A DNA stretch of 56,356 bases, filler included, from Streblomastix strix (taxonomy: Eukaryota), in NCBI GenBank assembly GCA_008636045.1. It is 2 parts of 2 records of this genome, joined end to end, with 100 filler letters (N's around TTAATTAATTAA, not from the genome) between each part and the next. Parts side by side here need not be neighbours in the genome. Positions count along the whole stretch, not along the records: positions 1 to 28,132 come from SNRW01000131.1; 1 more part is not named here. One strand, given 5' to 3'. Every line of letters starts with the position of its first letter. Within the stretch, counting starts at the first letter, position 1. This document shows, piece by piece, positions 565 to 28,232 of this stretch. The translations under genes were made by a program, and so were the position numbers. Under the pieces are notes generated by a model. It was not told the DNA's origin. It worked only from the letters and a program-made list of their open reading frames with translations, and did no database searches.

Positions 565-1790
565 CTATTAAATAACAATAAGAGAGAGAAAAAAAGAATA
601 CGAATAAAATTAATAAGAAAAAATAAATTTTTAACTTTTAGATAGTTTTATATTTAAAGTGATAAATATTTAATTAATTGAAAGTTTAAATATAAATATT
701 ATTTTAAATTTTCGATGAAAAATGTGTGTGTGTAGAAAAATAGGATTTTATGATGAATAATAAATCTGGTTTTTATTAGAAAATTAAGCAGTATAATTTG
801 GGAAATAATATAATATACACTTCAAAATAATATTTGATTATGATTAATAATCAATACAATTTTGTACAATAGATCACAAGCTGTCCAAATATTTTTTTTG
901 AATATGTAATAACTAGAAAGCTATTTATGATAGTGTATAAAAAATTTAATAGTAAATGTATATATTTGCAGTTCTATTAACTTTGCAAACTCAAAAGAAT
1001 CTTAATGGTCATCAATTCTACTCTGGGAATATTTCGTCTGTTTAGCGTACCAGATTTTGTAATTCATATCGGTATCCATATAACTTTATTCCAATAAACC
1101 ATTAATTGAGTTTCTATCTAATAAATTTATCTAATACATTCATTGAATTTTGCAAATCAAATTTTGGCTTTAGGACTGCTACTGCTTACTTAATTTACGA
1201 ATATACTTTTTTATTTAATGTCAAGCACAAAACTAATCAATCCACTTCATTAAATTGTTCTTCTATTAGTATAACAAAACTATTTTGCAAATTTATTTGA
1301 AATTGATTTTACCTGGCGCATAAGTTTTATATCCATCGGCCATTTATATTTTTTCTGTATTTTATTGGTTTCTACTGGTTAAATTCAATATTTAATATTT
1401 GTTAGACCTTTTCTATGAAATTAAAAGATAAAATAAAAATAATCAACAAAATAATAATTTTCATCCATAATATTATTAAATTCAGTATTTATTCTCTTTT
1501 ATTTTCCAAATTTCAGATTGTATTTTGTTTAAAACAGAAAGATGGAACATGAGAGTAGTTCTTCTTTCTAAATAACTCATGAGAAGCATCTTCTTTAGAA
1601 ACAAGGATATCAAATCTTCAACAAAATCAAGAACAGCCACGTGGACGAATATGTCCAGAATTTGAAATTTCAAATTTTTAAGTTGTAGAAGCTAACAAAA
1701 CTTTAGATTCAACATGTGCTGGAAGAGAGCACGAATGAGACATTGATTGACCTAGTAGGCATGTGTGCCGCACTACTACGCTTCGCAGAA

Positions 1791-4700
1791 ATGTCAACTT
1801 ATATCCGGATATGGATGAAGAAAGACGCATAAGGGGCCAATAATTTGATTTGGACTATAACGAAGTCATTTCACACGCAATTCAACCATTGCATGCGTTG
1901 TGACTGATACAGGGACAAGGAAGTTATGACGTAATAACCCCACAAGCAGGCCAATACTCCGCAACTGCGATGGGACCATGACAGCAGATTCCGCAGCTGG
2001 TGACGTTTACACCAACCCAGATCATATAACAATTTTACTCGGGACAACTGATACCTGGACCATAGAAACAACAATCATTCCAGCGATAAAACATGTACCC
2101 AAGAATACAATAATTTTAAGGTTTTCCGTAACCAGGCCTTTTCTAATAGGTCAAACAATCTTCAAGCTACAGTATTTAACTGCACAGTCAGCCGAGCATT
2201 AAAGAAAGTCTACATTAGTTCATATAGAATCCTCCAACAATGGAAATTTCATAAACTTAATAATCGAACGTATAAATTCCACCAGCACAAAGCTTAATAT
2301 ACCACCTAGCTTTTCAATCTAGCTTCTAAAGCCAGAACTTTAAGTAACTAAATTAAAATTTTAACCGATTACTCACGATTAGACTACCCACATTAGTACA
2401 ACAGCAATAAAATCAGGCTTAAGAACCGAGACACGTAAATGGATGATTAACAGATTCACCAGATACAGCTTTAATAAGAAGAATTGCATAGGATTAATAA
2501 CCATTATGGAATAAATTGAGCACGCAAGGAACTGATTAGAGTCTTTTCACTCCAGTACACTCCTCGAAATTATCAATAAATATGAATTAACATCAATTAA
2601 ATTCTCTCAAAGATTTCTGGGCTAAGAGAAGTTACGCGCTAAGATACATAGGTCTAAGATCTAACGGAGAACATCATAGAGGATTTGGCGATGGTCTATT
2701 AAATGTTAATGCCTTTATTCAGAGCCATGCCAGACATAACTGTCTAACAATTAATGATTGGAAAGCATTTTGGAGAGAAGTAAACTCAGATTTATATCTA
2801 GATACAGTTAGAATGAAGTTATATGAAGATTATATCCACGACCATCACCATTACTATGACCACGATCACGAAAACAATCACAGACATAACAAAGATCGAA
2901 ACGACAGGAATAATTTCCTAGATCAAGGAAGAGTCGGGAAAAGAAGAAGAATTATTTCAAGTGAATATTCAGGAAATGGATAGAATAATGAGGACTGAGT
3001 TGAAAGTCAACATCGCGAAGTTGACAGATAACAGATAAGAAAATTTAGAATTTTTCACGAGAGACGCGAACAGGTTTTATCCCCAGTTCAGTCAGTTACA
3101 GGAGCATCAATTTACATATCAAACCTCCTAACAGCTCAAGAAGAAGCTTTTCGTAGAAGAAATAACATCTCCTCCAACATCGACGAAGAGATTAGTGTTT
3201 CGTGGACAAGTCCTGAATCAACTAATTAAAAGTTAAATATCCCAATTGCAACCATTCAAACTGCCCAGTAATTACTCGCAACATAGTAGAATCAAGAATA
3301 ATTGAATTAATAGGTGAACATGCAGATCTTATAATAGATTAACTAACTTCAAGAAATTAATAGAGAAATACAAATCCAACAACAGGATGTTATTATCAAT
3401 AATTCATAATAGAATGAATAAATACAATAAATAGAAGTTATATATCTGGAGCAGGTCTTTTAATAGAATACAGAGAACACTCCAATGAATGGACAGTAGA
3501 ATATATATAACGAAGCTGAATAACCCGCCTAAACAGATACAACCCATACACCTTAAACAGAAGCACTTGACAATTTATAACTTAAACAAACAGAATAGGA
3601 TGATGAAATGAATATTAGAGCAGAATAAAATCCAATTTAACCTACATAAGTTTTCCCTGGGTTGCTTAATTTAACTCATTAAGCTTCATTATCTGAGATT
3701 GGTTCTCTAAATGAATAGTAATAAAATCTATCCCTATCATTATCGCCATCATCATCAATAATATAAATCAAGTAACATTAATAATCTGATCAGAAACAAT
3801 TCATATTTGTTACAGACCCTAACGATTAAATTATATAAGGGTATAGCAACCCAAATAAATCCCAATCGATCAAGCTATTAATCGTCTATCATTACTCTCA
3901 GAAAATCCTAAAAGACAAGCTGAAATTAAAGTATTTATTGGAAAACAGGTTTAATACATCAATAAAATTGAGTTGAATGAAAAATTTCAAAACATAATGA
4001 GCGGTATGATGAATAAACTCTAGAATCACTCCGATGAAGATGAAGCTATGAGATTAAGTATGGATATACTAAACAGATTATCGTCAGAACAACAATAGAA
4101 TATGAAGAGAGGTTTTGGACCATAAATAAGATTAATATCTTTCTATGAATCTCAAATAAAAAGGAAGATAACCGAATAGAATAGTAACACAATTCGCATT
4201 GATACGGGTTGGGATTTTGGTAGTGGGATTGTTAAACAATAAGATGAATTTCAGGGTGAATTATTAGACTTGATTCAATATTTAGAAATTAGGCCACGAG
4301 GCCAAAAGAATAAGAAATACTATCATAGAAAGCATTAGTGAAGTTAGAGAAAATAATAAAACCACTAGGCACAAACATAATGGAACTACAATAATTAGGT
4401 GTTGGACAGCCACCTTGGATCATTGTTTAGTTAGATGAGCTATTCGGGACTGCCATGGATGGCCCGAGACTAGTCATACATAAAACTGAGATCGAGACAA
4501 CCTTCCAGTAGAAGTCAAAGAATTGCCCCTTCAACGTAAACAAATCCATTAAGTTAGACTACACCTTACCCGAACTAGAATTTAAGTTCAATTTTGAATG
4601 TTGATCTTATGGGGATGATTACGAATCCATTTTCAGTTCGGAGTAGAATATAATATCAATAGACTGCAGAAGAAGCAGCAAAAGTTCATAGTGCACCCTG

Positions 4701-5050
4701 AGAGACATTTTCATCAAATGAAAATATAAGAATGGTAACATATTCTACAGACAGTGCAGTTTCTGGCTAAGTAGGGGTTGCTGGAACAAAATCAATAAAT
4801 ATTTAGACAGCACCTTCTACACAACTCCAGGGAAATCCTATTCGTGAACCAAAAGTGGAAAAGAAAGGAGGAAGGACACCTATCCGAAGTAATGCTGCAA
4901 TCACAAATGCTTCTGCTATCGCAAACAAGAACTAGAGTGAAGATTAGCAGCGAAGACAGCCAGGTGCGAGCCCCCCGGACGGTTCCAACTGATGGGAATT
5001 CAGAACAGAACAAAAGAGAATATTCATACCCTGGAAATCATTCCTAGGAC
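1791..5050 (+). pseudogene. Element 1 long 5' ORF region (gag-position), Q/N-rich, decayed
   Basis: Coding-like, more GC-rich sequence upstream of pol. Assigned by position only; no recognisable domain; boundaries approximate. Confidence 0.5.
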
Positions 5051-5052
5051 AA

Positions 5053-7037
5053 TAATGGAGGAAACATTACAAAATCAACCAAACACGGGAACGGAGCAAA
5101 AAACAATTCGTTATCTTGGGACGTGGATACTAGTAAAAGGAGTGGAATTCACAAAAAAGGGTTTTTTCTTCTATTCAAAAGCGAGGATAGCGAAAAGAGA
5201 TTGTAAGAGAGAGTGAGGATTTGTCCGTTCTCGGGCTCAAGAGAAGAGGAAATTGTATAAACGGAGAAATTAGAGGAAGAATTAAGAAAAAACATAAAAG
5301 AATAAATGCATCCAGAACAGGCTAAATGGTTTAATAAAATATCTAAAATTCTGATGCTTCACGAGAAATGGAGGGAAATTCTAGATGCGAATTCATTGAA
5401 TAAGGAGATATAAAAGACTCCTATAAAGATGAATGGAACAAATCAAGTGAGAGATTTGATAAGGAAAGGAGACTGGGCAACAAGTTTAGATCTAAAATCA
5501 GCCTTTCACCACCTAATAATATATCCACCGCACAGACCATACCTAGCATTCGAAGCAATAAGGAAAGTTTATTAATATAGAGCAATGCTTTTTGAAACAC
5601 AGCACTCCCCAATGTTCTTCGCACAAGCTCTAGCAGTGGTTCTAACTAAGATACGGAGAGAGTCAGACATATGAATATTGAATTATGTGGACGATTTGCT
5701 CCACTTACATTAGAACAAAGAAAGATTGCGAGAATAAACCTTGACAATAATGAGAATTTTGGAAGCATTTGGGTGGACAATAGCTCAAGATAAATGCGAA
5801 AGAGAACCAAAACAACAGATAAACTTCTTAGGATGGACTTGGGACTTGAAAAGGATGTATATAAAGATGTGTAACTTAAAAAAAACAAGATTTACGCTTC
5901 TAATTAAGAAGATTTATCAGCTTAACAGAGAATCAAGTCCCGATCAAGATAAAATATCTAGCATCAATAATAGGCAAACTGAATTTTTTAAGAGTCCAAG
6001 TAAGAGAAGCTTCTCTCTAACTAAAACTAATGGACTCAGCAAAGACGAGAGCATTGAAGAATAAAGAATGGAGAGAGAATATGATTCCACCCAAGGAAAT
6101 CCTTCAAGAGCTCTATTGGCGGTAGGGAGTGATAGTGAGGAATTAAGAAATGACATTAGAAGTGTAGATTCCAGAGGCAGTGATGGTATCAGACGCATCC
6201 CCAAAGGGCTGGGGAGTGACTCTGGAACTACAAACAGGAGATACTTTAGGCCAACATGGAAAATGGAACAAGGAACAGAAGAGATGGACAATTAATAAGA
6301 AGGAGATGGAAGCCATATTCTTAGGGCTATTCCATTACGGATAAATTTTTAAAGTGCTGCAAATTTAAGCGATCCTCATTAAGTCAGACAGCTCTACCGC
6401 AGTACAAGATTTTGCAAAACACAGAGCAGGTTAAACGCTGATAGTGGAAGTGAAGAAAATAGTTAAGCTATGTCAATAACTGAAAATACAAACTATAACT
6501 CAACATATTCTTGGAGTTTCAAATAAGATAATAGACGCACTAAGTAGACTAAGAGCCCAGGGCGATTTTTCAGTAAAGAAAAAGATATTCATAGCTCTGT
6601 GCCAAGCGTAGGAGACAATACCAAAATTGGACTTGTTCCCAATAGGGGTAAATAAATTCGTGGATAGATTAATAGCAATAGGAGAGGAAGTGAAAGAGAC
6701 AGAGTGGTTAAACGTGTTTATAAGACCATGAAAAGAGGAGATCTTTTGGATCCACCCACCAATTCCGAAGATTGGAAAAGCCCTGATCGCTTGGGAAAAG
6801 TTTAAACCAAAGTCAATCATGATAGCACCTTGGTGGCCAGGTCAAATATGGTTCATAAATTTACTAGCAGGTTGTAGCAGGTACATTATTATTGGGGAAA
6901 GCACTCTGATTCTGAACCCGGGGAAAGAGATGACTAAAAGGAAGAATATGCTACCACTAGGAATAATTGCGGTATTTCACTTGGACCAAGAGTCGAACAA
7001 GGAAGAAAATGATTAACAGAATTTTTATGCAACATGA
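5053..7037 (+). pseudogene. Element 1 pol: reverse transcriptase - RNase H - Dam-like N6-adenine methyltransferase domain
   Basis: KWREILDA...GDWATSLDLKSAFHHL...YRAM...NYVDDLL...FLGWTWD; VSDASPKGWG...KEMEAI...KSDSSTAV...NKIIDALSRL; LDLF...WIHPPIP...APWWPGQIW. Internal TGAs (5672, 6729) and frameshifts; ends at TGA 7035-7037. Confidence 0.9.
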
Positions 7038-8303
7038 TTGTGACCAGAGAAACCAATCAAATGATAATAGAAGGATAGAAATACTACACCCAAAAGAAGT
7101 ATATGTAGACAATGGGAGTATTTGATGATTGAATGAAATAAAAGAATTATTCAATCGAAGATGTAATAAAAAAAGAAGATACCATTCACACATACTGAAT
7201 TCATGACTTGGTTAACAAGAACTAAGAAAACAAAGCCAATATCAGTAAATCACTATAAATAAATACCTAACACAATGCTTTCCCTTTTATTTGGAACAGT
7301 GTAAGTCTCCGCAACAGCTCAGACTATTATTACATACTTAATTTCTAATTATTAGATTAATAGCCTAATATATGAGAATGCGTAAGACATCAATCAACTT
7401 TATGTGTATTGGAGAGAGACCTGATAATAATCTTCCGTCGAATGAGGAACTCCAAGTAAAGCTAGCCTCAATACTAATGACGTTATGCTTTGTGAGAAAG
7501 GAAGAGATGGCAAATATAGATCTAGCAATATCGATCATAGGTGATGAAGAACGAACAGCAGAAGTTTGCATCCCACGCAAACAATCTAGGAAAAGAGTTA
7601 TGATGTAAGAAAAACAGAGGATCCTACAGTGTGTCCTACAGACACGATTTTTGCTTAACTAGCAAGACATTGAAAGCACTTCTAACAAGGTCCAACAGAT
7701 TTCATACACTTATTCTAGACTGAGAATTGGGAGCAAGCTGATCAGAGATGCATTAATAAACGTCTTAAAAGACTTGTTCAGACACTTGGAATCAAAGGCG
7801 TTACCACAAACTCCATTAGACAAGCATCTTCTACAGAACTTGCAGCACAGCGTTTTGATGAGATAGCAATAAATGTCTTTACGCACCATATGTCAGATTC
7901 AAAGATGAACCAATAGTTCTACATTTTCGTTGCAAACATTGAGATGGATTCCATAGCATCCGCACTCGTAAACAATCACAGCGATAAGCATGCTACTAAA
8001 ACTATCTCAAAATAAAGGGGAGGAGCAAGATTCTTCAAAGGAAACATACTTCAGTAATTTCCTTTAAGAGATGATTTGTAGTTATCTCCATAGGAGACTC
8101 TTGCTTCACCTCTTTCCCTCCCGATCATTTCGTCCCAACCCATCGTCGAAGCTGAGTCTCCGAACGATCACGAGAGTGCAAAAGTCTAGAATTCGCAAAT
8201 GTAGAAGGATGACTAAGTTGTGAAACCACAGGAAGTAGCTCAAAATTCAAGTATGACAAAGGGTTCTGATAGAGCAACAACTGCAAATGCTTAGATATAA
8301 TGA
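7034..8303 (+). pseudogene. Element 1 tyrosine recombinase (YR)
   Basis: LASILMTLCFVRKEEM (catalytic R box), VCP, NSIRQASSTEL (HxxR box), FTHH, QQFY (catalytic Y). In-frame TGA at 8301-8303; frameshifted internally. Confidence 0.85.
8004..8115. repeat. Element 1 internal complementary region (ICR)
   Basis: 8070-8115 is the reverse complement of the element 3' end (gaggtgaagcatgattctcctatgaaaataat..., 8631-8677). 8004-8036 resembles the 3' ITR directly, as expected for the complement of the missing 5' ITR. Confidence 0.8.
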
Positions 8304-8679
8304 ATGAGAAGTCATAAATGAGAATGCATCAGTGTGAGTTTTTTTTATACATATGATATACAATTTTAGAACAAAATTTCTCTTTTCCACACTGCTACAA
8401 GATGAAACTAAGAGGAGGAGGTTTTTCTTTTAATTTTTTACCTTCGCATCACTAGATTATTTTTGTTTATCACTTCTCCTGGAATCTTTTTTAATCAGAG
8501 AAAACCAGTATTGGCACATCAAACAGTAATCTTTAACGCTTTCTTTTGTAGTTTTATATATGGCCGACCCATACGGATTGGCATCTCAACGGAGCATCCA
8601 GTTCCAGCGGCCCATTTGGCAATCTCAAAATAAAGAGGTGAAGCATGATTCTCCTATGAAAATAATAAAAAATAATTAT

Positions 8680-9600
8680 TATTGGAGAAATTTTCAATTT
8701 ATTAGAGAAAGATAATCCAGAAGTAACTAAAATAAAATTTAAATTCACTAATTCCTCTGAACAACTAATTCATCTTCATAATTAATTTTCTATTCAACAA
8801 ATAGAACCAGGATTTCTTAAATCTTTATATATTTTCTGCTTGAATATGTTCCTATTGAATATTAGAAGAAACTTTTTGAAAAGAGTATAATTTAATTAAT
8901 GATTAAAATATTAGATTCTAAAGATTATGCTATAAAAAAGATGCTATTAATATAATTAGAGAAATAATCAAAGCTGAATTTGATGGGTTAAAATCAGGAA
9001 AATAGCATCCACTATATTAGTAATTCTAATTAGATGGATCAATTTAAAAATTAATTCAAGCATTCAAAGATGTAAAAGATAAAGTTATACTTAAATACAT
9101 TGCATAAATACTTTCTTATTAAATCAAATCTCTTCCTCTTCCACCAGAAATCAGAAATAATGTTATTGAATAACTCAAATAAAGATATGATCTTGATTTT
9201 GATGAAATTTCATATCTTTCTGAATGTCCTGGTATACAAATTGTATATTGTTAATATTTATATTAATATAAATATTTACTTTTATATTTATTATTTTTTT
9301 TTATTATTATTTATTCCAATATGTAACACTTATAAAGACAATCATGATGCAATCCTTGCTAATTAATTTGAAATGAAACTCTTCAAAATTGAAAAATATT
9401 CCCTTGAATATCTTAATCTTTCACTTTCTATTCTTAAATATGGATCAAGTATTAATAAATTAAAATTTGCATCAGTAATTAAATAGAATGTTGAATAATT
9501 GACAATTGATGAATATGTTGATTAATGTTGTATTTGGAATTCAGATATTAAATAAGAAATTTGATCCAAATCCAAATGATTACTTTCAATAATAATAAAT
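8680..9600 (+). pseudogene. Host multicopy family gene, copy A (helical-repeat-like), decayed
   Basis: ...PLPPEIRNNVIEQLK...FDEISYLSECP, intron 9232-9337, then DNHDAILANQFEMKLF...ILKYGSSINKLKFAS. Carries frameshifts/TGA and is paralogous to the adjacent copy. Confidence 0.6.
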
Positions 9601-10116
9601 ATAATAATTGATAAAAATAATATGAATATAGTTGTTTTTACTAGTTACATAATTTGAAGTATCTAAAGATAAAAATTATAGAAAATATTTATGCGAAATA
9701 ATATTAAATTTTACTTTTGAATAAATTAATAGTTTAAAATCAAGATAGTAACAACCATTACCTTAGTTATTCTAAACAACTGGAACTATTCCGAAACTAA
9801 ATGAAATATTCAAAAATGAAAAAAATAAAGATATTCATAAATATATTACATAAGCACTTAGCTATTTTTTCAAATCTCTTCTTCATCCACCAGTAATCAG
9901 AAATAATGTTATTAATTAAATCAAAATAAATTATTGTCCAGAGTTTTTTGAAATTTCACTTTTTGATGAATGTCCTGGTATAGAAATTATTTATTATTAA
10001 ATTTATTTAAATTTATTTAAATTTATATAAATTTTAATTTTAACTAAATTTTTAATATACTTATTTTAATATTTATTTTAATATTTAAAGATAATTATGA
10101 TTCAATGATTTTTTAT

Positions 10117-10209
10117 CCCCCTATCTCCTTATCTCACTTTTTTATTGAGACACCATTGTGGCCCCAAATTGTTAGGTGCATAAACAGGCATCCAATCTAT
10201 GAGTTGGCC
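10117..10209. repeat. Element 2 3' inverted terminal repeat
   Basis: ccccctatctccttatctcacttttttattgagacaccattg...ggtgcataaacaggcatccaatctatgagttggcc matches the reverse complement of 17191-17285. Confidence 0.9.
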
Positions 10210-10959
10210 TATTTGATGCGGTAAAGAATTCAAAGAAGAAACAACAACTATACAAAAGTAATAAAAAATTACATTCGAGTCCCGGTAAAGAGAATTCAGC
10301 AAAATAAGGTAAGACGAGAAGAAATAGAAAATATAATAGTTAAAGTGGAAAAATATTAAATAATAAAAACCCTCCGAGGAAAAAATTGATTAACATTAAT
10401 AAAAAACTTAGTTAAATTTGAATAGATTTAGTAAAAATTTTTGAAAAACCTAAATAGTGAGTAAAAAATTGGTTTGAAAAAACTTCTCTCATGGGGAAAA
10501 TAATTGAAAAGAACAAGAAAAACCCCAATAAATTTGATAAATTAATGGTTTTACAGCTCATAAGATGAACTGAAATTACGGATTCTCATAGAAATACCCC
10601 AGGTAGTAATGGCATAAGTATAAAAATAACTGTTAAGCTATTGAAATTTAAAATTTAATGCGTTGATACTTCATTAACTTCATAATCATTCTTGAAAGAT
10701 TGATAAAAATTTCCTTATTCGCCTATTTCTTCTTCATATCCATCGAAACAACTCGTTGACAACTTCTCTTTATCTATAATCCGTTATCAAACTTTTCAAA
10801 CTTTGACAGAGTAATGTCCTTATCTCTGCAATATCATTCTATTCGCTATAGCCCACCTTCAGCATCATTCCGCTTGTTCGAACCTTTAGTTCTCTAGGAA
10901 ATTCTCTCTTTATTTCTGTTTCATTTCGGGTTAGGATACATGTTTTGGGTGGAGCAGAG

Positions 10960-11070
10960 GTGAGATAAGGAGATATGGAGATAACAAATCATTATCCTGT
11001 CTCCGAGGGAGACGAGGATAATAATTGGTTACCCCCTTCTCTCTTTATCTCTCCTCTTTATTGAGATACC
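10960..11070. repeat. Element 2 ICR (complement of the circle junction)
   Basis: 10960-10993 is complementary to 10104-10137 and 10991-11070 is complementary to 17248-17327. The two halves share ATT at 10991-10993. Confidence 0.92.
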
Positions 11071-12055
11071 TAGTCTAGCCTTTCATTATCCTGGCCTGAA
11101 TTACTTGTTAATTACCTAGCTATGTCATTTGCTCTTATCGAGGATGCGAAAATATAGTATTGTTAGACAGTACGTGAGTTTTAGGAGTGACGTGTAAAGG
11201 TAGCAAGATCTCTTTCAGAGATATCTAGCTTTTTCAACTGTGTGGTTGCTGAACGTCGTATTGAATATGCTGATGCATCTATTATCTTAAGCTCTTTCAA
11301 TACTTTTGGAAGTTGTAGACTGATGTCTTTTGCAGTTGTTGGTTTATTAAAATTTTATTCCACAATAAAAAATCAGTCTCTTTCAGAATTTGTTTCTTCA
11401 TTCTATCAATCAATTCATATATTACTTAATTTCAGGCTTAGTTTCTCATTATCGGTTTCGTATACATCGTATGTTTCTATTGCAATTGCATGTTTTAATG
11501 CAAATATTAGTGATGTTTTGTTCTCTGATTTTAACATTAGAGAACTTAAGCATTATTTCAGCTATTTTGTTTGGTCAGAAGAAGCGTATTAACATTATTA
11601 AAGTGGCAATTTTTTATCTGTAAATCATAATTATTAAAGTATTTGTTCTATTTCGATTTTCTCCAGTGGTGAAATAGTATTTGGATATCCCAAATGTTTT
11701 GATATCTTCTATGTTAAATTGTTGTATTTGCAAATGCCTTGTAGATTAGTTTTGAGGTTGTTGAAGATGCTAAGTTCTCTTTATTTATAAGAGAGAACAT
11801 TGTTATTAGGCGAGCTTTATGTGATTTAGCTGATACGACTGAGTTGTTTTATCTTGTGTGAAAAGCGATTACTTCTGTTATTGTTGCTTTTGCTTCTTTT
11901 TTCATCATTTCTTTGATTGATATTCTTTCTATTTCTAACCAATCCTGTAGTGATGCAATTGAGTAAAAATCTCTTTTAACAGTTTTAAACCTTTGTCTAT
12001 TAAATAGTAAGCTAACTCCTTCTTCAGAGAATCCTCTCAACTTCATGCGTCTCAT
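10989..12055 (-). pseudogene. Element 2 tyrosine recombinase
   Basis: MRRMKLRGFSEEG...; AYSIRRSATTQL...FTRHSQNSRTVQQYYIFAS; ends ...SETGQ then TGA at 10991-10989. Confidence 0.85.
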
Positions 12056-17000: not shown

Positions 17001-17178
17001 ATTCGATATCTTACAGCGTCTGCTGCAGCTCGGACTGAAGAATCTTCCCGATCTCGTCTCACATCTTCGATACCTCGCTAATGGTCGTGGCAGGTGTCCC
17101 TGCAGTGAACTTCGGTGTGTCGAAGTTCGCAGACAGTCGCTGCTCTAACGGTTCCGGTTTTACTGAATTCTTTGACAT
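14030..17178 (-). pseudogene. Element 2 long 5' ORF region (gag-position; possibly two ORFs)
   Basis: ATG at 17178 just inside the 5' ITR. Includes ORF-track pieces 16434-16934, 16047-16229 and 15703-16044 (RS-rich, then Q-rich). No known domain recognised. Confidence 0.6.
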
Positions 17179-17190
17179 TTTTTTGAAAAT

Positions 17191-17285
17191 GGCCACATCA
17201 TAGATCGGATGCCTGTTCGTGCACCGGCCACATATAGAAGCAACAATGGTATCTCAATAAAGAAATGAGATAAGGAATTAAGGGG
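17191..17285. repeat. Element 2 5' inverted terminal repeat
   Basis: Reverse complement of 10117-10209; followed outward by a ~42-nt unique terminal extension to 17327. Confidence 0.9.
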
Positions 17286-18503
17286 TTAACCAATTATTAT
17301 CCTCGTCTCCCTTGGAAACAAGGTAATTCTTTCTAAATAAATTGAAATGAAATTCTTTTATGATGATATATATACAATTAAATGTCTTAATGTCTAACTT
17401 TCTATTCATAAAAATGGATCAAATATCAGTAAATTAAAAGTTGCATCAGTTATTAAATAGAAAATTGAATACTTGAAAAATGATAAATATGTTGATAAAT
17501 TGGAAGAAAAAAATGATTGATATGAAGATATAATATAAAAAAATTAAACTAAATCCAAAGAATTAGTTACAATAGTAATATCAATGATTGGAGATTAAGA
17601 GAAAATAAAAAGAATAAATAAATGAATTGATATTTATAATAAGAATAAATCAATAATTAAATCAATATTTAAAAGAAAATATCATATAATTAATTTTATT
17701 ATCCATTTTTTAATTTCACAATCCAATTTTTATTTTTATTTATTTTTAACTTTTTTGAGAGTTTTTTTAATTTTAATATTCTCGTTATTATTTATTATAT
17801 ATTCATTTCATATTCATAATTATAATCTTATTCTTTTAAACCTTCATTTTCCGAATCTTTCTATAAATTGAATAATGAAATCAAATCAAAATTTTAAGAT
17901 CAAGACTCCATTAATAAAAAAGATGAAGAATAAATATAATAAAAACAAAAATAATTAGAAGAATAGAACGTTTTGTTTGAATTTGTATAATGAATTATTT
18001 TATCTTTCTTAATAAATAAATGAATAAGTTTTGTATATAACGATGCATTCAATGATTTAACAGAAATATAGAAATATATTTAGAGTCGCTTCATCATTTT
18101 TTAACTTGCAAATCAAATTGATGTTTTTTTATCACAATTAAATAAGATATTTAACTCATTTTTTCTCAAAAATAATTTATTATCATGTAAAAATTAAATA
18201 AACTGGAATAAAAAGTTAATATTCTATTTGATTTAATTTACAATTCAACATTAAAAATTGTTTGATTTATTGTTATGATCTATTTTTTGTTGACTGCTGC
18301 CATTTTAATCTACAACTTGAATCAATTAATATTAATAACTATTAAATTTATTATTTTTCAAACAAATTAGATAAAATTAATAAAATAAAACTATAACAAT
18401 TGTCTAGGTTTGATAAATTATAATTAAATTAATAAAATTTTATTAAATCAAAAAGGAATCTCTGTGAATCAATTTTGTTACCAATAGTATCACACTGGAA
18501 ACT

Positions 18504-18618
18504 GAGGAGTGCATTTATTATATCCAACAACTTCACCTTTATTGAGTGTTTGCAATCAACTATTTGAATTGATTCTTCTAGCAATTCCCCAAAGAATGTT
18601 TACAATTGGGAAGCCATT
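18504..18618. repeat. Element 3 5' ITR
   Basis: caacaacttcacctttattgagtgtttgcaatcaactatttgaattgattcttctagcaattccccaaa matches the reverse complement of 26054-26165. Confidence 0.9.
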
Positions 18619-18713
18619 TTAAAAACTGCAAAAGATTGGCTTACGCTCTGGACAAATTTCACCTGTAAACGTCCATCGAGCAGGGACTCATACTAGACAC
18701 AGAATTATGCAAA

Positions 18714-21700
18714 CATGGTACCTCTAAAACGTCTACAGGCCGTCGCGCAGCCGCATCCGACGTTTGTGAACGCGTTCCTTCGCCCGAACATTGAGATTAA
18801 CTCGCTGGACCCTGACTAAACAGTATCGACACTAGAAGAGTTACCATAGAAAGCGATAACAGCAGCACAAACACTCTTAGCGGGACTTTCGGGGCAGGAA
18901 ACGTCGCAGACCGATGTTTATGCGGAAAACCGTTAGAAGAGCAAGTCGTTGAAGCTAGACAATTCACAAGAGCAGCCCCAGACTTGGTGACGCACAGGGG
19001 ACCGCTGAAACACAATAATCCACCAGTGCAAATTGTGCTCGCTTTTGATCAAGTCCTCGCAGATCCAGAAACGAAATTGCTATAACAGTACAGACTGCTA
19101 CAGGGAACACTGACATAGATCGTAAAACGAGACTGGATAGCAACTCTGAAATTTAATTTGAGCAGGTTCATAAACATATACGACACGATTTACAAGATAA
19201 TCATTACGGGAGCACCGATGGACGCGACGGAACAAGGGAATTTATTGAAAACATAGCCTTATACAGTAATACGTCCAGTGTACAACAATTAGATGTTGAG
19301 ATCGTTACGTGCACTACTGTAGACTGAGAGAGCACATCCAGCATCGGTAGACCCATTATTGATAAGAATTATTGGCTTTACGGGAGAATTGGACCAGAAA
19401 TTGAAGAAGCTAACTGCGAAACAAGTAATAGATTTGATCAGGAGCAAGCCAGAGATAATGATACCAGAATGTGCTCAAGATTTCGAGAGGAAACCAACAT
19501 CGAAAACCAAACTGACTGTTTTTTACCACTGTTATGTTAGTTATAACAGTAGAGCCTGAATCCAAACACACCTCTCATTCATTTTTATATCCAAACCCCT
19601 TAAAAGTAAATATGATGATAATAGTCACTACAATACCCCTTCTAATACTCGGGGTAACCAATGTAGTATCCGATCTAACCAATTCAGTTCCCAACTATCC
19701 CACCACCAAATCCATTTTTACCAACGGTGAACCCCCCGTAAACACAAATGAGCGAAAATGTATGAGACTAACAAAACTTGATTCTACCCGTTCAACAAGT
19801 TGACCAAGCTGCAATACAAACAATTGAATTACCAAGACAAAATACAACAACAACCAGGAACATTAATAACCTGTTGATTCCACCAATACCAGTATATCCA
19901 TAACAACAAACTTCTCGAATACCACTGATACCCTACACAACAAAGAGGAATAAATAGCAAAGACAGAGTTAAAGATCAATATCTCTAATATACAAGAGAG
20001 CAGATGAATCTGAAGAAAAGGACATTCTAGATGAAAAAATACCTGGAATAACAATGCCACACTTACCACCGCACAAGAGTGACATAGAAACAGCACAAAG
20101 AACATGATAAAACAGAGGATATGATTTAGTTAGAGATCCCAGTGTGATCAAATTCAAGACCTTGATATGGCATAGCAAGCTGGTAGCACAGAAGCCCTTC
20201 ATATTTAGAGACTGAAGAGAGTTCTGGTCAGATGCAGGCTTTTAAATGGAATAAATCAATATACTGCACTATCTGTCAAATGAATGCAAGTCTCAAAGCC
20301 CTCACGACAAGTCAAGAAGAAATGAATCTGTTAGAATATATGATAGGGAGAAGGAATATGCGATAGAGAATGGGAAAGAAATGAAAAAGAGAAGAGAAGA
20401 TGAGGCGATCCTGGATGCAGAAACGAAAAGAAAACAAAGCAGTAGTAGTAGCAGCAGCAGTAGCAGTAGCAATAACAGCTTGAAAATAAAAGAAGATTGG
20501 ACAGGCAAGGGAAATACAATAATTCCGTGAACCGATGGAGACGTGGACTGGTTTGAAGATGATGAACACCATAGATAAATAGAGAAAGTGAGACAGATCG
20601 AATTTGAATGAAAACAATGGACTATGAGTCAATAACAATCCCAATCGCAACAATCACAAATGTGAAAAGATCAATTAGCAAATGAAAACTAGAGACAAAA
20701 GCGTTCAGAGCTGAAAAACACCATTTCATTCATACAACCTGACTCAAATACATAAACAAATTTAAATATATACTTCAATTACATATGTCCGTAATATAAT
20801 ACACCCCACAAATATCCTTCACCACACCCTCAATAACACTCACTATCACCCATATAGGACGAAACATTAGCAATTCTAAGGACAATTTCCCCCAGAGATC
20901 CACGAGGATACAAGGAAAGAGAACCCGAAAGGAAATATCCGAAACTACAACAATATGCAGGACTAATGGATGTAGTTAAAAGTTTCCACGAAATAATGAA
21001 GCCAATGATTGAAGAAGAAAAGAAGAAACCCAAAATTTTGTTATCAGGATAATACAAAGAATATTCGAACAAAGACGGACGGGCGTTCTTCTATTCATCT
21101 AAGAACTATCGCCCAACACCAATACCCAGATCTAATGACCTGAATCTCTCAGAAGAACTACGAAATTAGTTTGGTGGGGACATATACGAGGACGTAGTCC
21201 CCTTTTGTCTTTGACTAACCAACAATCTTGAAGCTTTGGCAAATCACCCAAAAGGATCATATATCCCAAGATTTCTAAATATCAGTGATGGAATGGCTGG
21301 ATTCATTAACATACACCCCCAAATTTACCAATCTATTCTTGAAGCTGTAAAAGGTTTAATCGTATTCGCAGCAAAACAAATCATATAATCAGAAACAGAT
21401 AGTAATGACTAAGAGCAATTAACGAACGAACTAGAGAGAGTCGTAGCTGATAGAATAGATGACAACGAAGACGAAGACTAATCTATGCACGTAATCGAAC
21501 CCAAGCATCTCACAAACGGAAACGATGGACTCAGAAAGAATGACAGCGGGACTCAGTTAAAGGCCACTGTCAACGGAGAAGCGAATCCCTTCATTAATAT
21601 CACAAAAATATCCGCCAACACTCCACCTCACAATGTAAACGGATCTGATGGACTTGGAGGAAACGGTTGTAGGAAGCAGTTACAGGCAGCAACCAATGAA

Positions 21701-22380
21701 AATGAACTCTTAAACCATCAAACAAATGATAACACTGGCAATGAAAATAATAACGAGCAAGCTAACGATAATAGAACTAGATGACAATAAAACAATTAAA
21801 GATCCAACATGAAGAAGAAACAAAACTTTAAGATAATGGAAATACTAAATTTAGAAGGACAGGATCATTTCTTACAACCAATCCCGTATAAGATCTAAGA
21901 AATACAAATATTTTATAATCCAAAGGTTAACCATCCATAATCATCACAACCTCAAAATTAGGCAAAGTTAAAGGGAAAGTTGCAGTACCCAAACAAAGGA
22001 TGCTACCAACCAACGATCATGATACCAGAAGTAAAATAGGCTTGTCAAAGTCCGTACCTAATAATTACTTAGGGAGTCCCGAAGCTAGAGTTAACTCTGA
22101 CACTCTTAGTAATTTCGTACCCCAGTAGGAGAAGAGTAAAAAGGCAGATGTAGCCCAAGCTACTGAAATAAGTCCGCAAAACGCTCTAATAGTAACAAGA
22201 CCAGTGCAGGATCCAAGAAACAGAAACATGGATTCAACCTCGAAAACTAGATAGAAATAGAGCCCGATTACGAGGCTGACTAGCCGGATTAGCTGGACTG
22301 AGTAAGAACGAAAGGAGAAAGGAAGTGAGAGCAGAGATCTTGAGAGCTGTGAAACTGACAAAGAGAATAGAGAAATATTA
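18714..22380 (+). pseudogene. Element 3 long 5' ORF region (gag-position), includes a 13-codon polyQ at 20440-20478
   Basis: Coding-like sequence between the 5' ITR and RT. The polyQ is written cag tag tag tag cag cag cag tag cag tag caa taa cag. Boundaries approximate. Confidence 0.55.
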
Positions 22381-22383
22381 GAC

Positions 22384-24358
22384 GGGAATTGAAGGGATAA
22401 ACAACGAGATACTTGGAATAATGGGCAACAATTAACTTGAAAGATTTCATCAAATAAGGATTTACCCTCTAATGGAAAGATAGCTAGAGCACTAACAAGT
22501 TATAACTTTAGTTAAAGAAAATGAATTTTAGATAAATAACAAATTAAGCGAAAGAGTGCAAGATAACAATAGAAGAGAAATTGAAAGAGAATATTGTAAT
22601 ACCGATCAGAAAAGAATAAATTAAATGGTATAACCTGACATTCATGATTAAGAAAGCTAACGGGAAATAGAGAAAGAGACTAGATGCGGAGGCGTTGAAT
22701 AAATAGATTTCAGACTTCGACTTCAAGATATACGATTCGAACGAGGTGAAGTAAACAATTAGACTTGGAGATTTTGGCACTTCATTGGACCACTCCCCCA
22801 CATTTCACTACCTAATTGTCCAAATTGAATCATTGCCATAACTTGCATTCTAGTTTCAGAACAACCATTACGCATACAGGGCAATGCAATTCGGAACCAA
22901 ACGCTCACTAATAAACTTTGCAACAGTAATGGAATCAATAATGCAACAAATAAGAATGAAAATCGAGATTAGAATAATAAATTACGTCGATGACATCCAT
23001 CTTCTTCATCAGAACAAGCAATACATGAAGAATATGTCTTAGAAAGTAATAGGTACACTGAAAAATTTTGTTTTCACAATAAACTCAGAGAAGAGCGATA
23101 TTGAATAGAAATAGAAAATAATTTTTCTAGGATGAAAATAAAATCTAACCAATGCAACAGTTAAACAAAACCGAAGAAGCGATTACTTTTTCTATACGAT
23201 TTATTCAATATGAGAAGATGGATAAAGACAAGAACAGATATAATAGTAAAACAGACAGCAAAATTAATAAGAAAGTTAAACAACCTAAGACTATAATTTT
23301 AAAAAGCTTCTTTCTTCTTGAACACAATGGACCATCAGAAAGCATTAGCTGCAAGACTGAGAGGATGGAGTACAACGATGATAATGAACAAGACAGCAAT
23401 TCCAGATATAAATTGGTGGGTAGCAAAATTCAGAGCGATCATTCCAGCATTGTCAATACAGATATCACCATAAATATCAATGGCAACGGATGCAGCAGCC
23501 AGTGGACGGGGTTCAACATTGAAGAAGGAACTGGAAACGATAGCAGTAGCTCATGGAACTTGGAACAAAAGATAAGCAAAGCTAACAAGAAACAACCGGG
23601 AAATTAAAGCAATAACTTAAGGCTTATGAAACTTCGCCAAAGACTTAAAGAATTTGCGAGTTTAATTCCTAGTCATCAGAAGCGATAACAGTACAGCAGT
23701 TTTCGACATTAAGAAATGAAAAGCATCAACATGATTGATAAATAAAATTAAACAGGTACACTAAACAATAGAAAAGCTGGGAATCTAAGTCCAGATTATT
23801 CACTTCCCAAGAGTTAAAAACGAAATAGTAGATGCACTAAGTAGACTATCAAGAGCAAGAGACTACAAGTTAAAGGAGAAGATTTATCAACTACATGTCA
23901 TCAGATGAACTTGAACCCAACAATAGGACTTATTCTCACAACACTTCAATAATTTACTGCCAAGACTCATGTCAACAATAAAAAAACACTGAGAAATAGC
24001 AATCGACGCTCTCAATCAAGCATAGAAGAAAGAACTTCCATGGATTCATCCTCCTATCCCTCTCCTTCCAGCAGTTCTGAAAAAGATCGGAGAAGAGCAG
24101 ATAGAAGCAATGATAATTGTACCACTATGGCCAGGTCAGATATGGTATACAGAACTGGTAAACGAGAATGTACAATCCCTTATGCTTGATTGGAGCAACG
24201 AAATTATGGAACCAGTAACATCGTTAATTAAGAAGAATTTGAAACTCTCTCAAGGCAAGATATGTTGTTTCTTGATGGATCGAAAGCCAGGAAAGGAAGA
24301 AGATTCGCGAGAAAAATTTTATGAATATTAAATTTATCCAAGGGAGCAATAGATATGA
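22384..24358 (+). pseudogene. Element 3 pol (RT-RNase H-MTase-like)
   Basis: KWYNLTFMIKKANGK...YAYRAMQFGTK...IINYVDDI; MATDAAASG...NNREIKAI...RSDNSTAV...NEIVDALSRL; LFSQHFNNL...WIHPPIP...VPLWPGQIWY. Ends at TGA 24356-24358. Confidence 0.9.
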
Positions 24359-25328
24359 TTTTATATGGACAAAAATGCAATATTCAAAGAAAATACTATA
24401 ATTCAATCGAAAATCTTACGGAATTGACCCAAATCATTCTTAACACAATAATTAACTTATTAACAATGAAACCACACATCATTATAACAGAGATACTAGC
24501 TTAATTCACTTCATTAAACATTTCTGCAAGCTCAGCAATTCAGTTCCTTAATGTATCTCCTCAATGCTCTCATTCATATTCGACATAGACTTAAAGAATA
24601 ATTTCATGCTCCAATTCACCAAGAAAGCAATCTCAGCACATATGATCGTGAAACCGAAATACGAAGATACAATGAACGTGAGAATACTATTTGACTATTG
24701 GTGAGAAAAAGGATCGAACTTAAATTTGATAAACATTGAACTAAAGACTAAACTCACTTCACTCTTTATGACTATTTGTTCAATGGTACCAGCTAAAATC
24801 GAAGGAATATCTCCAAAACATTAAGTAATTTGCGAATAAATTGACAAATTAGACTTGTGACTGCATGCGAAAACAATGTCAGGACTTCAATCATACAAAC
24901 TTCCAAAGACTAGAGATCGAACTGTATGTCCAAGAGCAACTTTTTTTGATTGGCTGAAAAAAATTGATAACAAACATGGTCGATCCATCAGAGATAATAA
25001 ATATGGAGCACTATGGTGGAATGAAGACATAACTATACCAGCCAAAAGAGGCCAAATCTCACTCAGATTAAAGAAATTATTAGATGTGATAAGTATTAAA
25101 GGGAAATAAGTATATTCTTTTAGACACTCAGCAGCAACATAACTAGTAGTAATGGGTATAGACGAAACATTTTTAAACACATACACAGGACATGCGAGTA
25201 ATTCGAAATCGATAAATAAGTATTATGTATTAGCAGAGAGGTTAAAAGACAATGAAATAGCAACGAAACTATCTGATACTCGCGACTAAGTGGAATGTAA
25301 TCCAATTTCAAGTATTAAATAAACGTGA
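24355..25328 (+). pseudogene. Element 3 tyrosine recombinase
   Basis: KLTSLFMTICSM..., TVCPRATFFDWL, VYSFRHSAATQL, YTGHASNSKSINKYYVLAE. Ends at TGA 25326-25328. Confidence 0.88.
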
Positions 25329-25420
25329 AGCTGTTAAATACAATAAATATACTCCTCAATTGCCAAAGTGGGACTATTGGTAATTAGAGGATGTGTAATA
25401 AAATACGTCAACTTCGCTTT
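25314..25420. repeat. Element 3 ICR
   Basis: 25314-25383 is complementary to the 5' end (18478-18547) and 25384-25420 to the 3' end (26131-26168). Junction AAT at 25382-25384. Confidence 0.9.
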
Positions 25421-26053
25421 CGTCCCACCCATCATTCTAAAACTCAATAGAAATGTATTCATATAGTTTTTACTTTAGTCCAAATCCTTTGTGGCGTTTG
25501 TGAATCTATCACTACACTCTATGTATCATATATTTTCTTTATTATATCTTCCTTTCCTATCTCTGGGAAATGCCATCATGCAATACTGACAAGTAAGTAG
25601 GTGAACTGTTGACAATGTAATCTAATAAGCTAGTGAGCATGAGATGCCAGCAATTATTCATGGGAGGATATGCTCACGCAGTTCGTTGATAGAATTTGAT
25701 ACAAGAAATAAGGATATTTTTATTAATTGGCCATTTTATTTAACATTTAACTAATTTTATTCAATATTTCAACCAGTTTTAACTTTAATATTTAACTTTA
25801 TTTTGTATAATTAACGTTTTTTAATTTAACTTTAATCTTTTTGTTCAATGAGAGAACTTTTATGCTTAATTATGTAGTTGTTCAATTTGGTTTTCACTCT
25901 TACACACCATTTGTTTATGGTGATTTTCTCTTGCTGGCTCTATTCTCACCCACTATACATTTTTAAAACAACAATCGTCTATTTTTTTTGCTGGATCTCC
26001 TTTTATGAGACCAGATTTATCAATTTTTTTAACCTTTCTTTTTTGTTTTTCTT

Positions 26054-26165
26054 AATGGCCACCCCATTGCATTCGTTTTTGGGGAATGGCCAGAAGAATC
26101 ACTTCAAATATTTGATGGCAATCACTCAATAAAGGCGAAGTTGTTGTATATTATTATACATCCTC
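26054..26165. repeat. Element 3 3' ITR
   Basis: Reverse complement of 18504-18618. Confidence 0.9.
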
Positions 26166-26169
26166 TAAC

Positions 26170-28132
26170 AATTAATTATTTTTTTTATATTTATTATTTT
26201 ATGTCTTTATGTGTTCTCAATAAACTGTTTAATTTAATCTATTAATTGGTGTCTTCTATCTTTAGTCATGAAAATATTCATTTTTATCATATTTCATGTC
26301 CACCCGAGGAAGTCTATCTCCTATTTCGGTGTTAGTTGACACTTATTTAGGGCTATTGTCCAACCAAAATGCTCCAGAGTGTTGATTATATGTTGTGTTT
26401 GGTAAAAAAGCCAGTTTTTATCTTGATGGAGGAGAAGTAGATCGTCGGAGTAGTTAATTATTCTGATGTCTGTTCTCTTACGAATCTCCGTTAAAAGAAG
26501 GGTAAGTGCTTGAGTAAAGAAAATTGGGGAATGTTTACATCCAAATGGCATTGCCCTACATTGGTAGTGGTGATTATCGACTTCGAAAGCTAGGTATGCT
26601 CTATGTGGAGGATATACGATTAGGTGGTGAAAGGCCGATTTAAGATCGAGTGTTACTGCCCAATCGTTAGGAATGAGAAAGTATCGAACTTGTTCGACTC
26701 CATTCATTTAAAAATGAAGTGGTTGTACTTCTTCGTTCAGAAAACTTGCATCTAATATCTTTCTCCATTCTCCCGAAGGTTTAGGAACCAGAAAAGTTGG
26801 GTTCCACCATCTAACTTGTTCTTTCGGAATCTCTTCTATTATTCCTTCCTGTGGTTCCTCTTATAACATCGTTTTAAATGCATGCATTTCTGTTTGATTC
26901 CCTTGGAAGGGACATTGTGCGATTGTTTGTTAAAGTCTCTCTTGACTGTTACTATCTTTGAAGATTAGGTAAAATCCTTTCTGTATGAAATCTTTGCAAT
27001 TGATTGTTTCCCAAGCTGTGATGTATCTCATGAGTTTTCCACCTAGTTGTTATTATTATACTGGGGTTTAGCTTCGCTAAGGAGGAGTCTCTGGTAGTTG
27101 CTCCCCCTGTTAATGCCTCCAGACCTACATCAGCAAGTGCCGTCCGGAGGCGAAGTTGGCGCTGTCAGCGACCCTTCTTCTTCTTACGGGAAGATTTAGA
27201 GCGCGATTTTGTGCTGCCTTTATTCGCTTCGCTCCTTCTGGTTTCTTATGTAAGCCCCGGTGGGCCTTCATTTTCGGGATTATCTGGAAGATTGTTTAAG
27301 TCTAGTTGATCCTGGTCATGTTCAGGTTTATCTTCAGATTACTCTTACTCCGGACCCATCAGGGGTTGGAATCCAAGGCCATCTGCGCGTTAAGCCGCAA
27401 GATGATCTTGTTGAGGGATGTTCATCTCATTTCCATTATTTTAGTGTTCAATATTTGCGCGTTAAGCTGCAAAAATATTCACATTTTCTCCCCCTGCATG
27501 CCATGATGCCGTCCCAAATTAAGATGGGCTGTTGAAACAATAGGGCCATCATTGGTTGTAGGTTATGTTTAAGTAAGATCTCTTTCCATCATCTGTTCCA
27601 TATCTATGTCCATACATGATCCCAAATTAAAGTCACTCCCTCCAGCGATCTGTTTTATACGAGAAGATTAGGCGCTGGGATTTATAGTCCCATTGGCTGC
27701 TCCAGTCTTCCCGCGCCTCTGTCCAGGGACTTTTAACTTAGACTGCGTACTTCCCTAAATAGGTTGATGACGAGATAAAAGGGGCTGTGTTTGAGATTAT
27801 GCCTTGCCTCTACCTCTATTCTTCTTTCCTCTTCCTCTACGACCTCTAACCTGTAGTTCGATTAGATTTGATTCCCCAAATACATCATCATTACTGTCAT
27901 GATCATCATCTCTTCGCATTTGGTATTAATTCAACTCATTAGAGTATTCTTATTGATCTTAAGATGGGATTTAGCTAAGGTCGTCAATGTATTGATTTGG
28001 ATTGTAGTTAGGTTGGAAACTTCCAAAAGGATTGTAAGAGAGGTTATCAAACCCTTTGCTCCTGGCTTCTAGATTCATCAGCATTCCATCCATTAAGTAT
28101 TATTACGCTTTATTTTATGTTCTTTGATGCAT
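26170..28132 (-). mobile_element. DIRS-like retrotransposon fragment, element 4 (end of gag-position ORF plus RT), cut by element 3 and the contig end
   Basis: The upstream ORF ends at TGA 27167-27165. pol starts at ATG 27130: LGGKLMRYITAW...WWNPTFLVPKPSGEWRKILDA...LDLKSAFHHL...RAMPFGCKHSP...NYSDDLL...FLGWT*. No RNase H or YR remains. Confidence 0.9.
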
Positions 28133-28232
28133 NNNNNNNNNNNNNNNNNNNNNNNNNNNNNNNNNNNNNNNNNNNNTTAATTAATTAANNNNNNNNNNNN
28201 NNNNNNNNNNNNNNNNNNNNNNNNNNNNNNNN
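28133..28232. other. Artificial contig-joining linker (N44-TTAATTAATTAA-N44)
   Basis: Symmetric N runs around a six-frame-stop 12-mer, exactly 100 bp. The two sides should not be treated as physically linked. Confidence 0.97.

What the first reader, a model, noticed from the sequence alone, without database searches (positions are those of the whole stretch)
1722..28132. Cluster of four divergent DIRS-type retroelement families filling most of a 28-kb contig
Seen: four RTs (YVDD, YCDD, YVDD, YSDD) clearly diverged from each other. Three retain RNase H, MTase-like and YR domains, and two retain ITR+ICR ends. Established: this is the DIRS-1 architecture (RT/RH/MT plus YR, circular intermediate). 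Inference: a diversified, probably poorly described metamonad DIRS radiation with local accumulation; none occurs on the gene-dense right contig.
Basis: partly seen in the sequence, partly recalled or inferred. Interest (0 to 1): 0.7.

Follow-up and report, generated by a model that had tools for sequence, protein, structure and literature searches.

The report
Decayed DIRS retrotransposons in an oxymonad
This 28-kb stretch, likely from a termite-gut protist, is 85% filled by four broken jumping genes of a known type (DIRS1-like), one from each of four families that are common elsewhere in that species, so it is a likely first record of this transposon type in this protist group rather than a new kind of element.

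Summary
Observation confirmed and slightly understated. Four reverse transcriptases (35-50% identical) fill 85% of the left contig; none lies on the right contig. E2 (10104-17327, minus) is a full-length, textbook DIRS1-like element: inverted termini, internal complementary region (ICR), ATT at both ends, RT-RNase H-methyltransferase, overlapping tyrosine-recombinase frame. Its flanks rejoin in register with an uninterrupted host paralogue across a single AAT. E3 is full-length with imperfect ends; E1 keeps ICR and right terminus but no left one; E4 is an RT fragment. All four carry stops or frameshifts. Each belongs to its own family among proteins named Streblomastix strix (75 of 120 listed hits, 75 different contig lengths). 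The four families form one clade, nested among unnamed metagenome elements that share an HPP-type methyltransferase motif, apart from the animal-type DIRS1 sampled. 'Local accumulation' is not shown: the families are dispersed, the copies differ in age, and no genome was available for a density test. The searched literature has no oxymonad DIRS record; Repbase/Dfam were not checked. Verdict: new members of a known superfamily in an unreported host group; modest interest.

The parts
1683..8677 (+). E1: DIRS1-like element, family F1, 5'-truncated and decayed (5' edge uncertain, roughly 1550-1700)
   Evidence: tblastn with P0009/P0003 from 1683 to 8294; right terminus vs ICR; left terminus not found
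5153..7025 (+). E1 pol: RT (YVDD 5684), RNase H, MTase (IHPPI); stops at 5672 and 6729, one frameshift near 5870
5675..8294 (+). E1 tyrosine-recombinase region, starting as a long frame that overlaps RNase H/MTase (open 5675-7012); NSIR...THH...FY motif
   Evidence: (Phage_integrase E=0.002, below cut-off)
7998..8115 (+). E1 internal complementary region
8615..8677 (+). E1 right terminus, ending ATT
8977..9597 (+). Uninterrupted host repeat unit, paralogue of the E2 target site (single AAT at 9351-9353)
   Evidence: 279/368 identical left and 212/275 right of the junction
10104..17327 (-). E2: full-length (7,224 bp) DIRS1-like element, family F2, ATT at both ends, decayed
10960..11070 (-). E2 ICR; joins copies of the 3' and 5' ends across one trinucleotide at 10991-10993
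11052..12838 (-). E2 tyrosine-recombinase region, overlapping pol (open frame 12838-11558); YSIRR...TRH...YY motif; stops and a frameshift
12055..13913 (-). E2 pol: RT (YCDD 13386), RNase H, MTase (IHPPI); in-frame stops, frameshift near 13565
15714..16970 (-). E2 first ORF (418 aa), likely gag-like
   Evidence: position; no Pfam hit; weak collinear matches to E1's 5' side
17328..17580 (+). Continuation of the host repeat unit interrupted by E2
18477..26170 (+). E3: full-length (7.7 kb) DIRS1-like element, family F3; ends GTT and ACA against an ATT junction; most decayed copy
22389..24319 (+). E3 pol: RT (YVDD 22983), RNase H, MTase (IHPPI); 6 stops in RH/MT, frameshift near 23160
23062..25289 (+). 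E3 tyrosine-recombinase region (overlapping open frame 23062-24189; catalytic part 24540-25289, YSFRH...TGH...YY)
   Evidence: (Phage_integrase E=1e-5, 25.7 bits vs cut-off 27.1)
25305..25420 (+). E3 ICR
26171..28132 (-). E4: RT-bearing fragment, family F4 (YSDD 26452); cut just after RT at E3's right end, 5' part runs off the contig
   Evidence: 91% identical to P0001 over 229 aa
28133..28232 (.). N-padded linker between two unrelated contigs

Best explanation
The contig holds four decayed DIRS1-like retrotransposons, one from each of four related families that are dispersed through what is likely an oxymonad genome, and they likely collected here one at a time because the region is a gene-poor, decaying host repeat array that would tolerate insertions. 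Mechanism: an intact copy would be transcribed, reverse-transcribed by its RT/RNase H, have its ends rebuilt and joined on the ICR, and be integrated by its tyrosine recombinase at a 3-bp ATT/AAT target. Shown here: the domains, termini, ICR and the one-versus-two AAT pattern at E2. Inferred from DIRS-1 work: the cDNA and circle steps. The MTase likely binds rather than methylates (inference from HPPI in place of NPP-aromatic). None of the four copies could transpose on its own proteins (stops and frameshifts, shown).
For: Domain order and overlapping YR frame. ITR/ICR matches beat all shuffles. E2 begins and ends with ATT, its ICR joins both ends over one trinucleotide, and the flanks align gap-free across the junction to a paralogue with one AAT, as in the model of PMC3266345 (passages). 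A CTTTATT..GAG motif is shared by termini of three families. MTase model of family member P0308 (pLDDT 81.9) matches PCIF1/CAPAM best (E=8e-4), the relative named for DIRS1 MTases in PMC4738411 (passage). Tree: 50 of 51 S. strix-named RTs plus E1-E4 form one clade (SH-aLRT 100) of four subclades, one element each. 75 of 120 listed homologues are S. strix-named, on 75 different contig lengths. 8,260 contigs of one run lie on E3+E4 at >=82%, only 763 at >=99%. End branches differ (E4 0.05, E2 0.09, E1 0.17, E3 0.28), so ages differ. One of each family in four draws has p=0.09.
Against: Background density could not be measured (no genome), so 85% cover may be far above average. The median contig of the 75 homologues is only 4 kb, so they do not show how often elements cluster. 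E3 abuts E4 exactly at E3's right end, which chance adjacency does not predict. E3's end trinucleotides (GTT, ACA) do not match each other. The tree is a quick search without named DIRS/PAT/Ngaro/VIPER references, and the homologue search was seeded with these four families. The run laid is one sample and may be the window's source.
Confidence: 0.75

Rival explanations
1. The cluster is a targeted hotspot: these DIRS insert into or next to each other and build heterochromatic or centromeric arrays, as DIRS-1 does in Dictyostelium.
For: 85% cover by four families; E3's right end meets E4's broken RT; DIRS-1 is enriched at centromeres and inserts into older copies (PMC7192593, passages; PMC3950715, abstract start in listing).
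Against: E2 inserted into host repeat DNA, not another element; E1's right flank is also host repeat. The missing half of E4 is not on the far side of E3. E3 is more diverged from its family than E4, the wrong order for E3 inserting into E4. Families are dispersed over many contigs.
Confidence: 0.13
2. Part of the cluster is an assembly or amplification chimera, in particular the E3/E4 join, so fewer than four elements are true neighbours.
For: E4 stops at E3's terminus with a few bases of microhomology and E3's two end trinucleotides differ; no listed contig spans the stretch, and the listed pieces show none bridging that join (9,073 pieces not shown); the published S. strix draft was made from whole-genome-amplified DNA and is very fragmented (PMC8767320, passages; which assembly the window comes from was not examined).
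Against: E1-host-E2-host is coherent: E2's two flanks are halves of one host unit. A real deletion or recombination between E3-family copies gives the same join.
Confidence: 0.1
3. These are Ty3/Gypsy LTR elements, as the database names ('Ty3-I Gag-Pol') say, or PAT/Ngaro/VIPER elements.
For: Source names; RT/RH of DIRS are close to Ty3/Gypsy (PMC3266345, passage).
Against: No integrase or protease family hit in window ORFs or family proteins; YR and MTase present; inverted termini with ICR, not LTRs or split direct repeats; the 7 gypsy-like rows form a separate branch.
Confidence: 0.02

Closest known systems
DIRS1-like superfamily (DIRS-1 of Dictyostelium discoideum; families tabulated in PMC3266345)
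   Same: gag-like ORF, RT-RNase H-MTase, long overlapping YR frame, ITRs, ICR near the 3' end, ATT ends with AAT junction, no further target duplication, short motif shared by ITRs and ICRs, lineage-specific family radiation.
   Different: Longer (7.2-7.7 kb against 4.0-6.3 kb in the table rows seen) because of a 3.4-3.9 kb 5' region with no Pfam match; YR box reads Y/N-S-I/F-R rather than HSTR; MTase motif IHPPI; code 6; host group not listed in the passages read.
Unannotated S. strix proteins named 'Ty3-I/Ty3-G Gag-Pol' or 'reverse transcriptase' (P0001-P0120 set)
   Same: Same four families; best matches about 70-77% (E1-E3) and 91-93% (E4) over the aligned parts.
   Different: Named as Ty3/Gypsy by their source; further S. 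strix-named families exist outside the four (P0094, P0280).
Unnamed JGI/ENA/Logan metagenome RT-RH-MT proteins (P0037-P0061, P0274-P0290)
   Same: Form one clade with the S. strix families (117 rows, support 100 in FastTree; 78 rows at 96); mostly HPP-type MTase motif; P0037's N-terminal part scores 0.91 to a cluster with 25% LAP2alpha, the DIRS1 gag domain (PMC4495291 abstract).
   Different: 33-42% identity to P0001; hosts unknown; termini not examined.
PCIF1/CAPAM cap-specific adenosine methyltransferase
   Same: Best fold match of the element MTase model (TM 0.46-0.58, E 8e-4 to 6e-3).
   Different: 10-18% identity; the element domain has HPPI, and DIRS1 MTases are described as likely inactive (PMC4738411, passage) or as inactive in an E. 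coli test (bioRxiv 10.64898/2026.05.21.726589, parts 1-3 read).
PAT-like, Ngaro-like, VIPER-like YR retrotransposons
   Same: RT/RH plus YR; PAT also has the MTase.
   Different: They carry split direct repeats (PMC6681497, passages); Ngaro and VIPER lack the MTase (PMC3266345). E2 and E3 have ITR plus ICR.

Membership tests
DIRS1-like | pol with RT, RNase H and MTase in that order | tested here: met
   E1-E3; MTase fold of family member P0308. E4 keeps RT only.
DIRS1-like | Tyrosine recombinase ORF, often overlapping pol; no DDE integrase or protease | tested here: met
   Phage_integrase weak in window pieces, above cut-off in family proteins P0083 and P0113; second frame open for 375-445 codons over RH/MT; no integrase or protease hit in 32+28 proteins scanned.
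DIRS1-like | Inverted terminal repeats | tested here: met
   E2 and E3, 0 of 300 shuffles reach the score. E1 lacks the left one; E4 has none in the window.
DIRS1-like | ICR complementary to the 5' start and the 3' end, overlapping on 3 bp | tested here: met
   E2 exact at ATT; E3 junction ATT with diverged ends; E1 right half matched.
DIRS1-like | Integration at a trinucleotide equal to the junction, without other target duplication | tested here: met
   E2 against an uninterrupted paralogue; one case of one testable. E3 does not fit cleanly.
DIRS1-like | gag-like first ORF (LAP2alpha-type) | tested here: inconclusive
   ORFs at the expected place, no Pfam hit; E1-E2 matches weak (3/200, 5/300, 11/300 shuffles); LAP2alpha lead only for sister-clade protein P0037.
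DIRS1-like | RT/RH groups with reference DIRS1 elements | tested here: inconclusive
   Groups apart from gypsy-like rows and beside animal DIRS-like proteins; no named reference element was available.
Already described DIRS family (Repbase, Dfam, GyDB) | High identity to a curated consensus | not testable with these tools
   No such library held; nearest proteins outside the S. strix-named set are 33-42% identical.
PAT-like / Ngaro-like / VIPER-like | Split direct repeats | tested here: not met
   Terminal repeats are inverted with ICR; the direct matches seen (D11-D13) follow from ITR-ICR symmetry.
Ty3/Gypsy | LTRs, protease, DDE integrase | tested here: not met
Centromeric DIRS cluster (Dictyostelium type) | Elements confined to few large CenH3-bound clusters | not testable with these tools
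   No genome, no chromatin data.

The most novel reading that the evidence does not exclude
Oxymonads carry an ancient, undescribed DIRS1-like lineage with a rewired HPPI methyltransferase and an enlarged 5' region, and multi-family clusters like this contig are their centromeric or heterochromatic domains, as in Dictyostelium; the contig would then be the first sequence handle on an oxymonad centromere.
Probability: 0.1. Interest if true: 0.72.

Novelty: new member of a known kind. Interest (0 to 1): 0.37.

Why it matters
PMC3266345 (passages) calls DIRS1-like presence in Excavata uncertain because the copies lacked usable repeat structures; E2 and E3 supply complete ITR/ICR anatomy and a resolved target site from what is likely a metamonad, which bears on whether DIRS1-like elements predate the main eukaryote splits. 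It also shows that many database entries named 'Ty3 Gag-Pol' in S. strix are DIRS fragments. The mechanism itself is known; a specialist would find the host record useful, not startling. Only a centromere role would raise it.

Tried and rejected
No whole genome held: no copy count or density test. Metagenome scan: 61 loci, 1 of 61 with an MTase-region hit (L001), and its best matches are animal-type proteins; nothing from the oxymonad clade. Sequencing runs: three DNA runs of one sample; no RNA holder listed. Summed contig depth is not a copy number and is not used as one. An apparent antisense ORF in E3's 5' part was my misreading of the ORF list; it is on the sense strand. All-frame comparison of 5' regions: no tblastn hit in 6 of 6 pairs. 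Rfam: 0 matches. Earlier findings: nothing. VIA fold search never ran. Careful IQ-TREE search did not finish; quick tree used. Weak Pfam rows (Ntox17, LuxE, DUF5863, RdRP_1) were treated as chance or RT cross-matches. PMC6765251 is not held. Literature searches with no paper: Streblomastix+DIRS, DIRS+Metamonada+tyrosine recombinase (59), Monocercomonoides+DIRS (81), oxymonad+DIRS (82); Streblomastix+reverse transcriptase gave one unrelated listing (58).
Full report
Setting. The window is two contigs joined by an N-padded linker at 28133-28232. The standard code gives 2 ORFs of 150+ codons, code 6 gives 144. The nearest named proteins are from the oxymonad Streblomastix strix, so the host is likely that species or a close relative (inference). 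No whole genome was held.

Observation. The four RT motifs lie at 5684(+), 13386(-), 22983(+) and 26452(-). tblastn with intact relatives maps RT, RNase H, MTase and YR onto E1, E2 and E3 and RT alone onto E4. RT identities are 35-50% in 6 of 6 pairs, so these are four families. Elements cover 85% of the left contig; 0 of 127 proteins hit the right contig.

Termini. E2 runs 17327 to 10104 on the minus strand and starts and ends with ATT. Its ICR (10960-11070) is the complement of the 3' end and the 5' start joined over that trinucleotide. E2 sits in a host repeat unit; an uninterrupted paralogue at 8977-9597 aligns to both flanks (279/368 and 212/275 identical), gap-free across the junction (a 9-base gap lies shortly upstream), with one AAT where E2 has one at each end. 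This is the pattern predicted for YR integration at the junction trinucleotide (PMC3266345, passages). E3 (18477-26170) has both ITRs and an ICR, but its ends read GTT and ACA. 7 of 9 terminal comparisons beat all 300 shuffles; the 2 that did not are the searches for E1's left end. Termini of all three families share a CTTTATT..GAG motif.

Coding state. Each pol has in-frame stops, and E1-E3 have frameshifts. A second frame stays open for 315-445 codons over pol in all four, the long pol/YR overlap of DIRS1. The YR box reads NSIR, YSIR, YSFR. The MTase motif is IHPPI in 3 of 3 window elements; IHPPI or VHPPI in 19 of 30 S. strix-named proteins, HPP-type in most of 21 metagenome relatives, and AFPPF in 106 of 119 animal-type proteins. 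A model of the domain from family member P0308 (91-row alignment, pLDDT 81.9) matches PCIF1/CAPAM best, agreeing with PMC4738411 (passage), which also calls DIRS1 MTases likely inactive. The 3.4-3.9 kb 5' regions have no Pfam match and only weak collinear E1-E2 similarity.

Families and tree. One search found 125 proteins at E<=1e-10 among 7,995 scored; 75 of the 120 listed are S. strix-named, on 75 different contig lengths, median 4 kb. A quick IQ-TREE of 143 RT rows (dropped: 26 of 77 S. strix-named proteins with under 170 aa of RT, cluster members P0128-P0154, about two-thirds of the set) puts 50 of 51 S. strix-named rows and E1-E4 in one clade (100) with four subclades of 10, 12, 11 and 17 rows, one window element in each. 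Adding 97 of 130 new proteins (FastTree, 240 rows) keeps it (99) and nests it in a 117-row clade (100) with unnamed metagenome proteins and further S. strix-named families (P0094, P0280), apart from the animal-type proteins. The search was seeded with these families, and no named reference element was in the tree. All-families-from-one-species clades are usual for DIRS1 (PMC3266345, passage).

Is the cluster special? Not shown. The families are dispersed; 8,260 contigs of one run (possibly the source sample) lie on E3+E4, most at 82-95% identity. One of each family in four draws has p=0.09. End branches of 0.05-0.28 suggest different insertion times. E2, and E1's right end, lie in a decaying host repeat. 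The E3/E4 join looks nested, but E4's other half is missing and E3 is the more diverged, so deletion or chimera is at least as likely. A Dictyostelium-type centromeric cluster is not excluded.

Mechanism. Shown: domains, termini, ICR, target trinucleotide, decay. From established work: the ICR is required for DIRS-1 transposition; the detected cDNA is mostly linear single-stranded and the circle remains a model (PMC7192593, passages). Inferred: these families used the same route; the present copies are passive.

Literature. Four paired searches gave no paper. 'DIRS' does not occur in the main text of PMC8767320, PMC10703272 or PMC6759080 (term searches). The 2026 preprint on DAM-bearing retrotransposons does not name oxymonads in its main text (parts 1-3 of 5 read); its supplements were not seen and may list screened genomes. 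PMC3537659 and PMC6681497 were seen as passages, PMC4495291 as abstract. Subscription papers, Repbase, Dfam and GyDB were not searchable, so 'undescribed' is provisional.

Verdict. Real, ordinary in mechanism, new members of the DIRS1-like superfamily in a host group with no record found. Interest 0.37.

Noticed in passing
window 24900-26215: Summed contig depth over E3's 3' end (YR tail, ICR, right terminus) is roughly 10-fold above its 5' half in X1 and 4-5-fold in X2; could be many 5'-truncated or short non-autonomous copies, or just higher conservation.
   Followed up: no
window 8678-10103 and 17328-17580: Tandem, decayed host repeat-family units (72-75% alike) that serve as E2's target and E1's right flank; no Pfam family above cut-off.
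   Followed up: partly
window 1683-2995 (+) and 16970-15391 (-): Three weak collinear protein matches between E1 and E2 5' regions, including a W..K.Y/F...GFG stretch and a KAFW.E.N.DL stretch: possibly a conserved unnamed domain after gag.
   Followed up: partly
window 18568-22400: E3's 5' region (3.9 kb) holds two separate globular-looking coding stretches (about 18568-19559 and 20666-21784) with no match to the other families or Pfam.
   Followed up: partly
window 31543-37002 (+): Importin-beta N-terminal domain (IBN_N, E=6e-10) at the start of a likely long intron-containing importin gene on the right contig.
   Followed up: no
window 36936-40862 (+): 1,308-codon frame with repeated G-G-A-I/L-type stretches and a predicted-looking membrane segment, resembling a surface protein (recalled resemblance; no Pfam hit above cut-off).
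   Followed up: no
window 42747-51363 (-): Very Q/N-rich long frames; weak Cep192_D8 match at the C-terminal end (E=7e-4, below cut-off), a lead for a Cep192/ASH-domain gene.
   Followed up: no
window 51878-52759 (+): Four spaced copies of a short unit translating as DRNS.PFGGG (D13/D16).
   Followed up: no
P0134: A DIRS-like RT-RH-MT cluster has a member named as a bacterial (Solidesulfovibrio) protein; likely eukaryotic contamination of a bin (inference).
   Followed up: no
L001: Animal-type DIRS-like locus of 4.7 kb with RT-RH-MT, a YR match and a 121-bp palindrome at 3758-3873.
   Followed up: partly
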